From positions 129,952,001 to 130,016,000 of the forward strand of contig OX597818.1 in assembly GCA_951406725.2 (NCBI GenBank): a stretch of DNA of 64,000 nt, in the 5' to 3' direction. The notes below the pieces were generated by a model, which searched no databases, was not told the origin of the DNA, and saw only the letters and a program-made list of their open reading frames with translations. Position numbers and translations under genes: made by a program. This DNA comes from Octopus vulgaris (lineage: Eukaryota). Shown here piece after piece: positions 430-51,560 of this stretch. Numbering within the stretch: the first letter of the stretch is position 1; each line of letters opens with the position of its first letter.

Positions 430-1012
430 TTCATTATTTTTTCTAAAAATACTCTAGTAAACACGGTTATAGAGCGAGCATACAGATGTAAGCATTGGCA
501 AAAACATACATTTAGTGCATATAAGTAGTCTCTATCATTATATATAATTTAAACTTTAATTTCCTTTATATTTAACATTCACTATTAATACCCTACTCTT
601 TCTGTTATCTACTTATGACGTTATATCATATAATGTTTTTTTAAACAATATTAATAGCGTTCTGTCTATCGCTATACAAATCCATCATTCTTTGCTAAAA
701 TGTCTTATTCACGAGTTTCGTTTTTTTCACTTTCCCGAGGAGAAAATTGCATTGTTTATACCATTTATTCTTTTGAATATTATCAGTGGAATTTTCGAAA
801 CATGTGTCGAAAGTAAAAATATTTGATTACACCTGCGTTAACTTCATTTTTTATTCATATTATTCAAAATATTCAACGTAAACACGAAGTTTCTACCTTT
901 ATAAACAAGGAGTTACAACACCTTTACTTGTGAGATTTTTGCTGCCCTGGTAACTATTTATTTATTTTTTCCGTGTTAATTGTTAACAAGGTAAAAATGC
1001 ACTCATCTATTT
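430..1012 (+). mobile_element. PLE 3' end/pseudo-LTR, opposite in orientation to the ORF remnant
   Basis: 781-863 and ~890-1012 are near-identical to segments of 37455-37735. Contains GAAAC-ATGT-GTC (797-808), a minimal-hammerhead stem III with palindromic loop, and ends at a (TA)n tract. Confidence 0.55.
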
Positions 1013-1347
1013 ATATATATATATATATATATATATATATATATATATATATATATATATATATATATATATATACATATATACATATGGATATATAAAT
1101 ATATATACATATACGTATATAAAATATATATATATATATATTCACATATTCACATATACATATGTATATATATTCATATACACACACACACATATATATA
1201 TATACATACACACACGGATATATGCAAATATATATATATCCGTATACATATATATACATATATTCATATATATATATATATACATATATTCATATATATA
1301 TATATATATATATATATATATATATATATATATATATATATATATAT

Positions 1348-1520
1348 AGGGGAGAATTCACAAAAACAAAAACGAAGGACAGGTGGTGTAGACAATGAAC
1401 AGATGTATTAGTTTAATGCTTGGGAAGTGAAAATTTTTTTAACATTTTAAGCCTATGCTCTTCCACAGAAAGGAGCACAGAAAGAAACAAAGAGAGAAAA
1501 TAAAGAATGTGTAGTGATAT
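1348..1520 (-). mobile_element. Short TA-inserted element with decayed hammerhead-like core (copy 1)
   Basis: Homologous to 2068-2240. Minus strand reads CTGTGGA-AGAGC-ATAG-GCTT-AAAAT (1441-1468). Confidence 0.5.
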
Positions 1521-1576
1521 GAATGTATATATATATATATATGTTTTCATATAAACCTATATATATTCATATATAT

Positions 1577-1912
1577 AGGCATGGGTGTGTTGTAGCAAGC
1601 TTGCTTTCAACCGCATGGTATCAGGTTCCCTCCTACTGAAAGATACATTGGGCAAGAGTCCCCTAGTATAGCGTTGGGCTTACCAAAGCCTAATGAGGGT
1701 AATTGGTGGATGGAAAATTAAAGAAGCCCATCGTGTATATATATCTATGTATGTATTTGTGTGTCTGTGTTTCTTTCCCCACCATTGCTTGCCAACTGAG
1801 AGTTGTTGTGTTTATGTCACTGTAACCTCGCAGTTTGGCAATAGAGGATTGCAAATGATAAGTCCTGGGGTCAATTTGTTCTACTAAAAGCAGTGCCCCA
1901 GTATGGTCACAC
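1577..1912 (+). mobile_element. SINE family A (tRNA-derived, octopus OR-like), diverged copy
   Basis: Head, TTGGGCAAG core, internal TA/TG tract and GCAGTGCCCCAGTATGG tail match the young copies at 31180 and 59510. Confidence 0.75.
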
Positions 1913-2067
1913 ACACACATATATATATATATATATATATATATATATATAGAGAGAGAGAGAGAGAGAGAGAGAGACAGGGAGATTCTATTTTTATTTT
2001 ATTTCATACATATATATACATATATACATATATATATACATATATACATATATTTATATATATATGT

Positions 2068-2240
2068 AAGGAGAATTCACAAAAAAAAGATGAAGATAGG
2101 TGGTGTAACTACAAACAAATGCATTAGTTTAATGCTCGGGAAGTGCAAAAGTCTTTTATGTTTTGAGCCTACGCTCTTCCACAGAAAGGAACACAGAAAA
2201 TAAAAAGGAGAGAAAATAAAAATGTGTAGTGGTTAGCAAC
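2068..2240 (-). mobile_element. Short TA-inserted element with decayed hammerhead-like core (copy 2)
   Basis: Homologous to 1348-1520. Minus strand reads CTGTGGA-AGAGC-GTAG-GCTC-AAAAC (2156-2184). Confidence 0.5.
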
Positions 2241-3879
2241 ATATGTATATATTTATATATATACATATATATATATATTTATATATATACATCTATATAT
2301 ATATATTTATAAATATATATATATATATATATATATATATATATATATATATATAAGCTTATATATATATACCATAGTTGAATGTCCAACCCATGCTACC
2401 ATCTTACGTTAAACGATGATATGATGATGATATATATATATATATATATATACATATATATATATATATATATACCTACATATATATATATATATATATA
2501 TATACATATATATATATTATACATATATATATAAATGGTAAACATAGGATAATTCATTCACCTATCGACATATATATATATGTGTGTATGTGTATATATA
2601 TGTATATATATAATATATATATGAATGTATATAAATGAATATATATAAGTGTATAATTGAATATATGCATATATATCAATTATATATATATATATATATA
2701 TTCAATTATATATATATTCATTTATATACATTCATATATATATATATATATATATATACACACGTACACACACATTATATATGTGCATATATATATGTAT
2801 ATGCATGTCATATATGTATATGTATATATATATATATATGAGTGTGTATATATTTCTATACAGGAATATATACATATATATGTATATATATATATATATA
2901 TATATATATATATATATATATATATATATATACAGGAATTTATATACATGAATATATATATATACACACATGAATATATAATTATATACATGTATATATA
3001 TGATAATATATATATATATATCATCATCATCATCATCATCATCATTTAGCGTCCGCTTTCCATGCTCCAGACAGAGCTGGCAAACGGCCACGAACGGATG
3101 GTGCTTTTACGTGTCACCGTATATATATATATATTAATATATATATATATTAATATATACATGAATATATAATCAACCAATAAGAGTGAGAAAATTGGGT
3201 ACTAATTTAACAGCACATCCACTCTCTTATATATGTATATGAATATATACATATATATATACATGCATATATCTACATGAAAAAATATATATGTATATAT
3301 GTATATATATATATATACATGAATAAATTTGTACACATGATATATATCTACATGAATAAATTTGTATACATGAATATATATATATATTTATATTATATAG
3401 AGGGTACAATTATTCATAGGTACCGCATGCTAGGAGGGACCATTGCAGTCAAAACTACTAAAATAAACAAATTTTACCGAATGCAAAACTTCAAAGCAAG
3501 TCATTTAAAAACAGAATTTAGTTACATATCACCTGTGATTTCGCAATCAATGTGGAATATGCATTCTATGCCCTCAGTGCAACAAACTCAAGCCATGTAA
3601 GAAAAAACACAAGATAGCATACCCGACAGCCAACCGTAGAATTCGTCGTAGCATGTACGAATGTTTATCTTTACATATCTATGAAAATGGCAGGCTTATT
3701 CGCAATGCATTTCGGTAACAATTTGCCTATTCGGAACAAAAATTCACTATTGAACTATTCCGGTGAAAAATATAAATTTAAAATTTTAAATTTAAAATTT
3801 ATATATATATACATATACATATACATATATATATATATATATATATATATATATATATAGAGAGAGAGAGAGAGAGAGA

Positions 3880-49815: not shown

Positions 49816-49884
49816 TACCTGAAGATAGATTGTAACCATAACTCAAATTATTACGAATTGGACAGCCATGAAACGATCGTAGTG
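49816..49884 (+). ncRNA. Minimal type I hammerhead ribozyme-like motif within a PLE-derived repeat
   Basis: TAC-CTGAAGA (49819-49825)-stem II (5' arm decayed, 3' arm GGACAGCCAT)-GAAAC-GATC-GTA-GTG. Both core boxes are intact, loop III is palindromic, and a 3-bp stem I forms. Confidence 0.55.
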
Positions 49885-50054
49885 TTTTACTTATTATCTT
49901 TTATTAAACTTTTAATACTTTTGATATATATTTAAAATAATATAAATTAATTAATTTTATGTATTGGCTTAAGTTTTTCATTGTTTGATTTGCCTAATAG
50001 TGGTTTTATCTCTAATTTAATATAATATATATATATATATATATATATATATAT

Positions 50055-50255
50055 AGTTAATCCAAACAAGAAAACACAAAGAGAAAACACAACAACGCGA
50101 GGACATGGAACAAATATAGTATTATTGGACGCTCAGGAAAGAAGGAGGGTTTAACGTTTCGAGCGGAGTTCTTTGTCGGAAACATAGGAGAAGGAAAGAT
50201 CCAGAGAAGGGAAGACAGCGAAAAAAAAAAATCGCCAACGGTACACACGCGGTCA
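50055..50255 (-). mobile_element. Short TA-inserted element with hammerhead-like core
   Basis: Minus strand CCGACAA-AGAAC-TCC-GCTC-GAAAC-GTT (50179-50153); same layout as the elements at 1348, 2068 and 51370. Confidence 0.55.
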
Positions 50256-50597
50256 TACATACACATATACATGCATGTATACATGTACTCATATGCATGT
50301 AGTCCACTCTGTAAATTGGCTGGTATTAGGAAGGGCATCCAACCATAAAAACCCTGCAAAAACAGACAGTGAAGCCTGGTGCAGTCTTTTGCTTAGCCAG
50401 CCCCTGTCAAACCGTCCAACCCATTCCAGCATGGCAAACAGACGTTAAAGGATGATGATGTGTATACTTCCTCATGTGTATCAGTAACTAATATTTTTTG
50501 CTACATAAAATTAACATTCAGTTCCTTTATCCACTCCTTGTTGACTTGCACGCAAACCATTCCGAGATGTAAACACCTGCTATATATTGTGTCACTT

Positions 50598-50832
50598 AAG
50601 GCGACGAGCTGGCAGAAACGTTAGCACACCGGGCGAAATGTGTAGCCGTATTTCGTCTGCCGTTACGTTCTGAATTCAAATTCCGCCGAGGTTGACTGTG
50701 CCTTTCATCCTTTCATGGTCGATAAATACAGTACCAGTTTCGCACTGGGGTCGATGTAATCGACTTACTCTCTTTGTCTGTCCTTGTTTGTCCCCTCTAT
50801 GCTTGTCCCCTCCTTGTGGGCAGTAAAGAAAT
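50598..50832 (+). mobile_element. SINE family B with target-site duplication
   Basis: TATATATTGTGTCACT occurs on both sides (~50581-50596 and ~50834-50849). Confidence 0.92.
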
Positions 50833-51369
50833 ATATATATTGTGTCACTAGACAGGCAACTGCCTTTAGTGCAACAGTGGCTGACAAGTTGAATAGTAAG
50901 TAAAACATACACATGCACTGTAAAGTTATTTATAGTATATATTCTGTATTTCCTTTGAGGTATATTTGATGTCTACCCATCTCTTGTTTTTAAAATTTGG
51001 ATAAGCATAATCATAGCACTGATAACAGGTGAGTCATTAAGTGTGCACATCCAGGACGTATATGAACTAAAATGATAGCGTCTAAAGGTTCATATGCATC
51101 TGTCTTATTTGTACATACATACATACATATATATATGTGTGCATAAGTAAATAACTAATCTATATGTGTGTGTACGCGTATATACATATATGCTTGTGTG
51201 AGAATGTGTGTGTGTATACATATATATATCTATATCTCTATCCATCTTTCTTTCTCTGTCTGTCTGTCTGTCTCTCAGTATGTATATATATATATATATA
51301 TATATATATATATATATATATATATATATATATAAAATATATATATTTATATATATACATACACATACT

Positions 51370-51560
51370 GAGAGTAAAAAGACAACAAGAAAAAAAATAA
51401 CAGGTGAGGATGTGGTACAGGCAAAATATTAATAAGATACTCAGAGGCTCAGAGAAGGAAAGAAGGGGTGTTTTACATTCTGAGCAAAGCTCTTCTTCAG
51501 CAAAACACTTGTTCCTATCCCTCTTTCACACTTTCATCCCCTACTACAATATTGCAAGAG
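51370..51560 (-). mobile_element. Short element with hammerhead-like core
   Basis: Minus strand CTGAAGA-AGAGC-TTT-GCTC-AGAAT-GTA (51500-51474). Confidence 0.5.

What the first reader, a model, noticed from the sequence alone, without database searches (positions are those of the whole stretch)
780..51560. Diverse short, mostly (TA)n-inserted elements carrying minimal hammerhead-ribozyme cores
Seen: about ten 100-370 bp elements, mostly embedded in TA tracts and belonging to several unrelated sequence families. Most show the layout C(T/C)GNNGA-stem II-GAAAC-short loop-GTH, intact or decayed: 1441, 2156, 18900, 19434, 37095, 49819, 50155 and 51475; the copies at 797 and 37665 keep only the GAAAC half. 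Established: Penelope-like elements carry minimal type I hammerheads in their pseudo-LTRs, and these can self-cleave as dimers through a palindromic loop III. Inference: this genome hosts many non-autonomous PLE-derived, retrozyme-like families that target TA microsatellites, at roughly one per 6 kb here. Standard repeat annotation could hide them inside low-complexity masks.
Basis: partly seen in the sequence, partly recalled or inferred. Interest (0 to 1): 0.75.

Follow-up and report, generated by a model that had tools for sequence, protein, structure and literature searches.

The report
Truncated Penelope ends carrying hammerheads
Nine of the ten short repeats carry a whole, decayed or halved copy of the hammerhead motif (predicted to be a self-cutting RNA), and most are broken-off tail ends of Penelope-type jumping genes that insert into TA repeats, a known arrangement; the tenth is the tail of an unrelated jumping gene.

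Summary
The hammerhead motifs are largely real; the 'non-autonomous retrozyme' reading is not. Nine sites fall into seven repeat families whose genomic copies restore a type I hammerhead with a palindromic stem III. Families A (1441, 2156), B (50155), E (797, 37665) and F (49819) run upstream into RT + GIY-YIG reading frames of Neptune-like and Hydra-like Penelope-like elements (PLEs). One B locus is a complete repeat-ORF-repeat element. H (51475) is an older relative of B. C (19434) and G (37095) have longer copies, but no ORF was reached. 18900 is the tail of an APE-RT LINE with no first core box. 797 holds a complete hammerhead, not half. I found no head-to-tail arrays, and short B copies form no lineage of their own. 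PLE hammerheads and TA targeting are published, including one octopus Hydra element, and the scan noted the same reading on other DNA. What may be new: lineage A (15,703 exact motif matches) has U instead of A at core position 6 in 96 of 100 listed copies while position 7 varies freely, and 5' ends pile up sharply. Cleavage is untested.

The parts
1..382 (-). Inverted ORF piece of the family E (Hydra-like) PLE insertion; runs off the window start
   Evidence: 97.7% to the ORF in L196; tblastn 97.6% to E ORF aa 142-223
380..1011 (+). Family E sense arm: endonuclease C-terminus, 3' UTR, hammerhead, tail, ending at (TA)32
   Evidence: 95.7% to L196; EN tail at 382-498
729..814 (+). Complete type I hammerhead of family E: U4C core, 55-nt stem II, 6-nt palindromic loop III, GUC site
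1351..1516 (-). Family A (Neptune-like) 3' end; box 1 CTGTGGA at 1468, box 2 decayed
2070..2237 (-). Family A 3' end; box 1 at 2184, G12 lost
18880..18996 (-). 3' end of a young APE-RT LINE (family D): stop codon, GGCC hairpin, short-repeat tail; not a hammerhead
19327..19560 (+). Family C 3' end (19422-19560) with an inverted partial copy upstream; box 1 CTGATGA at 19434, box 2 decayed
37054..37335 (-). Family G: hammerhead arm 37054-37169 (box 1 at 37162, long stem II, GAAA at 37101) plus inverted arm on the + strand
37347..37733 (+). Rearranged family E insertion: inverted tail, tail, and 3' half of the hammerhead (37641-37733)
48577..48662 (+).
   Evidence: blastn 73.6%; covariance model E 0.003
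49749..50022 (+). Family F (Hydra-like) 3' end; CTGAAGA at 49819, long stem II opening with U-U, CGATCG loop, GUA site
50056..50255 (-). Family B (Neptune-like) 3' end; box 1 at 50179 (family CCGACGA, here G8A), GUU site
51391..51503 (-). Family H 3' end, older relative of B; canonical CTGAAGA at 51500, box 2 decayed

Best explanation
Most of these repeats are the 3' ends of protein-coding Penelope-like elements, likely left when reverse transcription stopped early at TA-repeat insertion sites, and each carries the parent's hammerhead motif, which is predicted to cut RNA only as a dimer. Shown: fixed 3' ends in (TA)n, variable 5' ends, and collinear RT + GIY-YIG sequence upstream for A, B, E and F. 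Inferred: the element's endonuclease nicks (TA)n, its RT copies the transcript from the 3' end and usually stops after about 150-220 nt, sometimes leaving an inverted second copy. Because the hammerhead lies within the last 100-200 nt, nearly every stub inherits it. Single stubs are likely inert passengers that decay; selection on the motif would act only in parent elements, where two repeats flank the ORF and could pair through the palindromic stem III. 18900 is a 5'-truncated LINE in the same TA tracts.
For: A: RT in L017, GIY-YIG in L014, L019, L023, all upstream on the same strand. B: 153 exact matches to a longer form; L347 has two direct repeats around DKG, RT, CX4CX2C and GIY-YIG motifs; L349 has an RT piece upstream. 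E: ORF upstream in 8 of 25 loci at over 120 aa and inside the window. F: RT and EN in L195, Pfam GIY-YIG E 1.3e-4. Short and long B copies interleave: 10 label changes against 10.4 shuffled, best column p 0.26. Inversion junctions of C differ from copy to copy. Same-strand neighbours within 600 nt are rare. PMC4209133 (parts 1-2 of 4) reports that most minimal hammerheads are single motifs probably from truncated PLEs; PMC8557442 (section 11 and supplement tables) reports TA-inserting Hydra PLEs with hammerheads of the same stem III types.
Against: No ORF was reached for C, G or H. 5' ends are not evenly spread: 14 of 19 unbiased B copies start 196-217 nt from the 3' end and none beyond 226; exact counts fall from 2,168 to 153 over about 15 nt, with patterns of different length. 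The PLE RT pieces gave no Pfam RT match and were recognised by motifs. Lineage A lacks the canonical A6. The covariation count rests largely on one diverged lineage in hand-picked rows.
Confidence: 0.85

Rival explanations
1. Some families (G above all, possibly C, H or the ~205-nt B form) are SINE-like non-autonomous elements: a short RNA from the repeat's internal promoter would be copied in trans by a PLE protein.
For: Sharp 5' pile-ups in A and B. No ORF for G beyond about 200 nt of shared upstream sequence. Three of 30 long B copies join the element's 5' region directly to its 3' end, each at a different point. Earlier notes describe a 359-nt retrozyme-like family elsewhere in this genome (not tested here).
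Against: Short B copies form no lineage. The upstream repeat in L347 starts about 250 nt before the pile-up. C has copies about 0.8 kb longer. G and H are old families (89-90% to their majority), whose parents may simply be rare or lost.
Confidence: 0.15
2. They are non-LTR retrozymes that replicate through self-cut circular RNAs.
For: Type I hammerheads in short repeats; a 2026 preprint derives retrozymes from PLE repeats (10.64898/2026.07.22.740005, part 1 of 5).
Against: Retrozymes are tandem 150-450-bp repeats (PMC7229834, passages). Same-strand neighbours within 600 nt: A 2 of 71, B 4 of 121, H 6 of 97 (B and H overlap), G 2 of 40, C 0 of 78, E 0 of 30, F 0 of 20. The one trimer inspected (L202) lacks box 1 in its second and third units and includes flank.
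Confidence: 0.04
3. The motifs are relics: hammerhead cleavage is no longer needed by these elements, and the folds persist by descent or as a protein-binding signal.
For: The two largest lineages carry core changes expected to lower activity: U6 in A and C4 in B and E. A6C and U4C lower activity in vitro (PMC3088659, section 8 and passages). Minimal PLE hammerheads cut poorly even as dimers (PMC4209133).
Against: In lineage A only the nominally free position 7 takes all four bases (counted within a pattern that fixes the other core letters). Stems I and II show two-sided changes between families. All seven families keep a self-complementary stem III.
Confidence: 0.3

Closest known systems
Minimal hammerheads in the pseudo-LTRs of metazoan PLEs (Cervera and de la Pena 2014, PMC4209133; parts 1-2 of 4 read)
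   Same: Type I fold, unpaired base after A9, G-C at the base of stem II and palindromic 15.2-16.2 in A, B and H; thousands of single motifs, few in full elements.
   Different: Lineage A has U at position 6; B and E mostly have C at position 4. Neither change appears in the parts read, which report U3-A8.
Hydra-clade PLEs, including Hydra-1_Obim (Craig et al. 2021, PMC8557442; section 11, passages, supplement tables)
   Same: C-terminal GIY-YIG with CxxC and CxH around the conserved E and N, RT motifs matching the published alignment by eye (E, F), (TA)n targets, U-U at the base of stem II (F), ACUC-N-GAGU stem III (C).
   Different: E and F are other families than Hydra-1_Obim by their hammerheads, with 44-55-nt stem II regions; F has a 3' UTR of about 2.2 kb; all tabulated Hydra cores are CUGANGA while E has C4.
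Neptune-type PLEs (motifs as summarised in PMC8557442, passages)
   Same: DKG, CX2-5CxxC linker, GIY-YIG with paired cysteines, TA bias (A, B).
   Different: Clade placement is by motifs only; no tree against reference elements was built.
Metazoan non-LTR retrozymes (PMC7229834, passages; 10.64898/2026.07.22.740005, part 1 of 5)
   Same: Short repeats with type I hammerheads, related to PLE repeats.
   Different: No tandem arrays here; coding parents exist; circles not shown.
APE-type LINE, CR1/L2-like (group label recalled, not tested)
   Same: 18900: APE endonuclease + RT upstream (Pfam PF14529, PF00078), short 3' UTR with a hairpin and a short tandem-repeat tail.
   Different: Its hairpin-GAAAC mimics half a hammerhead but has no first box.

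Membership tests
EN+ Penelope-like elements (families A, B, E, F) | RT followed by C-terminal GIY-YIG upstream of the repeat, same strand | tested here: met
EN+ Penelope-like elements (families C, G, H) | RT followed by C-terminal GIY-YIG upstream of the repeat | tested here: inconclusive
   Longer copies but no ORF; H is 71% like B over 178 nt
EN+ Penelope-like elements | Direct terminal repeats (pseudo-LTRs) around the ORF | tested here: met
   One locus, L347, family B: repeats 87-92% alike, 5.06 kb apart; the downstream copy has lost its hammerhead
EN+ Penelope-like elements | Inverted 5'-truncated copies and variable tails | tested here: met
   C 38 of 78 motifs have an opposite-strand neighbour; also seen in A, B, E, F, G, H; window 1-1011, 19327-19560, 37054-37335
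Neptune clade (A, B) | DKG and CX2-5CxxC linker before GIY-YIG | tested here: met
   L347; linker in L277, an A-lineage relative
Neptune clade (A, B) | Placement in an RT phylogeny | not tested
Hydra clade (E, F) | CxxC and CxH flanking conserved E and N of the endonuclease; (TA)n targets | tested here: met
   against PMC8557442 section 11
Hydra clade (E, F) | DKT, RWK and CxCX5C motifs; RT phylogeny | tested here: inconclusive
   N-terminal part missing in the copies fetched; linker not clearly read; no tree
Type I minimal hammerhead | Box 1 CUGANGA | tested here: inconclusive
   Met in F (24 of 24), mostly H and G; C4 in B (21 of 24), E (21 of 24), C (12 of 22); U6 in A (29 of 29); absent in D
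Type I minimal hammerhead | Box 2 GAAA, U16.1-H17, stems I and II, self-complementary stem III | tested here: met
   Family majorities of A, B, C, E, F, G, H; G12 is often lost in individual copies (H 9 of 19, A 6 of 29)
Type I minimal hammerhead | Compensatory changes in stems | tested here: inconclusive
   7 of 8 pairs with two-sided change, 0 of 500 shuffles, but 10 hand-picked related rows and few independent events
Type I minimal hammerhead | Self-cleavage, as monomer or dimer | not testable with these tools
   Needs in vitro transcription
Non-LTR retrozymes | Head-to-tail arrays of 150-450-bp units each with a whole hammerhead | tested here: not met
   five of the neighbour loci were not inspected in detail
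Non-LTR retrozymes | Circular RNA intermediates | not testable with these tools
   Only contig-level runs were offered
SINE-like non-autonomous family (B tested) | Short copies form their own lineage with a fixed 5' end | tested here: not met
   12 of 17 long and 24 of 30 short candidates used
APE-type LINE (18900) | APE endonuclease + RT, 3' short tandem repeats, 5' truncation | tested here: met

The most novel reading that the evidence does not exclude
The largest lineage here (A, at least 15,703 exact motif copies) spread with a hammerhead fixed for U at core position 6 while position 7 drifted through all four bases. It is an active natural A6U dimer ribozyme that CUGANGA-based searches and Rfam miss. 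With its canonical sister H and the U4C sister B, it gives a natural series to test whether Penelope-like elements need ribozyme cleavage to move.
Probability: 0.3. Interest if true: 0.5.

Novelty: new member of a known kind. Interest (0 to 1): 0.3.

Why it matters
As an arrangement it is known: PLE ends with hammerheads in TA repeats. It matters modestly for three reasons. Scale: about 24 intact motifs per 800 kb suggests very roughly 80,000 in this genome, and none of the loci tested reached an Rfam threshold. Variants: very successful families carry A6U or U4C cores next to canonical sisters, which makes the open question of whether PLE hammerheads must cut directly testable. Annotation: short TA-flanked stubs like these can be misfiled as SINEs or retrozymes, and a LINE tail can mimic half a hammerhead.

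Tried and rejected
Rfam by E-value: 710 matches, the 150 listed all TA-repeat microRNA look-alikes; at gathering score none. The repeat finder was swamped by microsatellites. Non-autonomous reading of B: first suggested by uniform ~200-nt hits and a guessed upstream pattern with 1 match, then rejected when longer copies and a full element appeared. A guessed upstream pattern for C gave 0 matches; a shorter one gave 21. Walking C and G upstream did not reach an ORF; a further C query was low-complexity and uninformative. A suggestive endonuclease-like peptide upstream of G in L155 had no significant match. 18900 as a hammerhead with a distant first box: no box and no matching stem I. Expression: no RNA holder listed; four contig-level runs of uncertain kind were laid, showed no pile-up of ends and cannot show cleavage or level, so the greater depth over B than F is not used. 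RNAcofold favoured dimers for all seven motifs but often through stem II, so it is not taken as support. Lunse et al. 2017, on small PLE hammerhead variants, was seen as a title only; it may already list these core variants. Literature searches; none returned an A6U hammerhead or an octopus-wide hammerhead survey (the one 'A6U' hit is a twister paper, listing only). Supplements of PMC4209133 and PMC3088659 were not read and may bear on the variant claim.
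Full report
Setting. The window lies in G000, a 2.8-Gb, 227-contig genome, 31% GC and dense in (TA)n. Earlier notes call this genome an octopus; I did not test that.

Observation. I read each site on both strands and searched the genome with each (21 to 40 candidates scored per search). 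The sites fall into eight families: A (1441, 2156), B (50155), C (19434), D (18900), E (797, 37665), F (49819), G (37095), H (51475). Aligned copies restore a type I hammerhead in seven. A, B and H are minimal: 4-bp stem I, an unpaired A, a GAGC/GCUC stem II and GAAA-CG-U-H. C has a 3-bp stem II and an ACUC-U-GAGU stem III. E, F and G have 44-55-nt stem II regions and 6-nt palindromic loops. D has no first box.

Chance. In 80 evenly spaced 10-kb stretches a descriptor found 16 intact motifs with the strict core and 24 with a relaxed core, against 0-2 per shuffle in 10 local two-base-block shuffles and 0 in reversed DNA. A covariance model built from 10 hand-picked copies found 30 matches there, seven of them training rows, and five in the window at E 0.003 or better, three of them training rows and one new decayed copy at 48621. 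Exact whole-genome counts: 15,703 for the A motif and 10,729 for the B motif, 0 for the reversed controls. Rfam reported nothing at gathering score. 3' ends abut (TA)n far above background.

What lies upstream. A: four of 29 copies reach coding sequence, RT in L017 and GIY-YIG in L014, L019 and L023. E: a young family (99% to its majority) with an ORF ending in a GIY-YIG domain about 200 nt before the hammerhead; the window's 797 copy itself holds ORF pieces, with 1-382 inverted. F: a young family with about 2.2 kb of AT-rich 3' UTR, then RT and GIY-YIG in L195. B first looked like a fixed 200-nt unit, but 3 of 30 copies taken at its apparent 5' edge went on, a longer pattern had 153 matches, and L347 is a whole, mutated element: repeat with hammerhead, DKG, RT, CX4CX2C, GIY-YIG, a CA-rich UTR, and a second repeat. 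H shares B's upstream sequence and has the canonical core. C has non-inverted copies sharing about 0.8 kb upstream, G about 200 nt; neither reached an ORF. D runs into an APE endonuclease and RT (Pfam E 3.9e-14 and 5.5e-30) and ends in short tandem repeats, so it is a LINE tail.

Autonomy tests. On the last 205 nt of B, 12 long and 24 short copies interleave: 10 label changes against 10.4 for shuffled labels, no column with p below 0.26; five long candidates without a readable 3' end and six extended or rearranged short candidates were left out. Same-strand neighbours within 600 nt are rare in all families, while inverted neighbours are common in C (38 of 78) and join at different points each time. 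This is the pattern of repeated truncation from coding parents, not of tandem retrozymes.

Mechanism. Shown: fixed 3' ends in TA, variable 5' ends, inverted partners, coding parents for four families. From published work: PLE repeats carry such hammerheads, which cut weakly and as dimers (PMC4209133, parts 1-2 of 4; PMC6765202, passages); inverted truncated copies, tails and TA preference are typical (PMC8557442, passages, section 11, supplement tables). Inferred: target-primed copying from the 3' end with early stops, so stubs inherit the motif and then decay.

Results against this reading. No ORF for C, G and H. 5' ends pile up: 15 of 20 unbiased A copies start 146-187 nt from the end and 14 of 19 B copies 196-217 nt. 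A hairpin or TA-like microhomology at these points could explain it, as could an internal start site; I could not tell them apart. Pfam did not recognise the PLE RT pieces and scored two GIY-YIG domains below its cut-off. Covariation passes the shuffle control but rests on few events.

Core variants. Among the first 100 listed A matches, position 6 is U in 96 (A 2, C 1, G 1), and position 7 in those is U 41, A 25, C 19, G 11 (my count; the pattern fixes the other core letters). Among the first 100 B matches position 4 is C in 77, U in 21, A in 2. Natural A6C and U4C variants with low activity, and U-U at the base of stem II, are described (PMC3088659). Searches found no A6U hammerhead, but the most relevant paper (Lunse et al. 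2017) was seen only as a title.

Verdict. Known kind, new families. Earlier notes reached the same reading on other DNA and describe a separate retrozyme-like family in this genome that I did not test. Interest 0.3.

Noticed in passing
window 48577-48662 (+): An eleventh, strongly decayed A-lineage hammerhead copy.
   Followed up: partly
window 18689-18728 and 27189-27219: Short tail-only stubs of families E and F without the hammerhead.
   Followed up: no
L327, L329, L338 (upstream of base 1500): Internally deleted B elements: the 5' region joins the 3' end at three different points; possible seeds of non-autonomous families.
   Followed up: partly
L194:5716-5800, L195:5660-5723, L193:910-994: The 3' UTR of family F carries a 75-81% copy of the family D LINE tail.
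   Followed up: no
L233:4-50, L249:7503-7549 and several model hits: A further abundant minimal-hammerhead lineage with a canonical core and different stems, not present in the window.
   Followed up: no
L209, L283, L229, L218, L246, L280, L212, L236: Many more hammerhead families with long stem II and 4-8-nt palindromic loops in the genome sample.
   Followed up: no
window 3977-4351 (+): Old LINE RT remnant, 33% to the family D protein.
   Followed up: no
window 46124-46354, 50599-50833, 53956-54189: Copies of a very abundant ~235-bp SINE-like repeat; a related tandem pair lies at 38026-38396.
   Followed up: no
L347:7821-8579 (-): A different PLE with a GIY-YIG frame lies just upstream of the full B element; its 3' region was not checked for a hammerhead beyond a read-through.
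   Followed up: no
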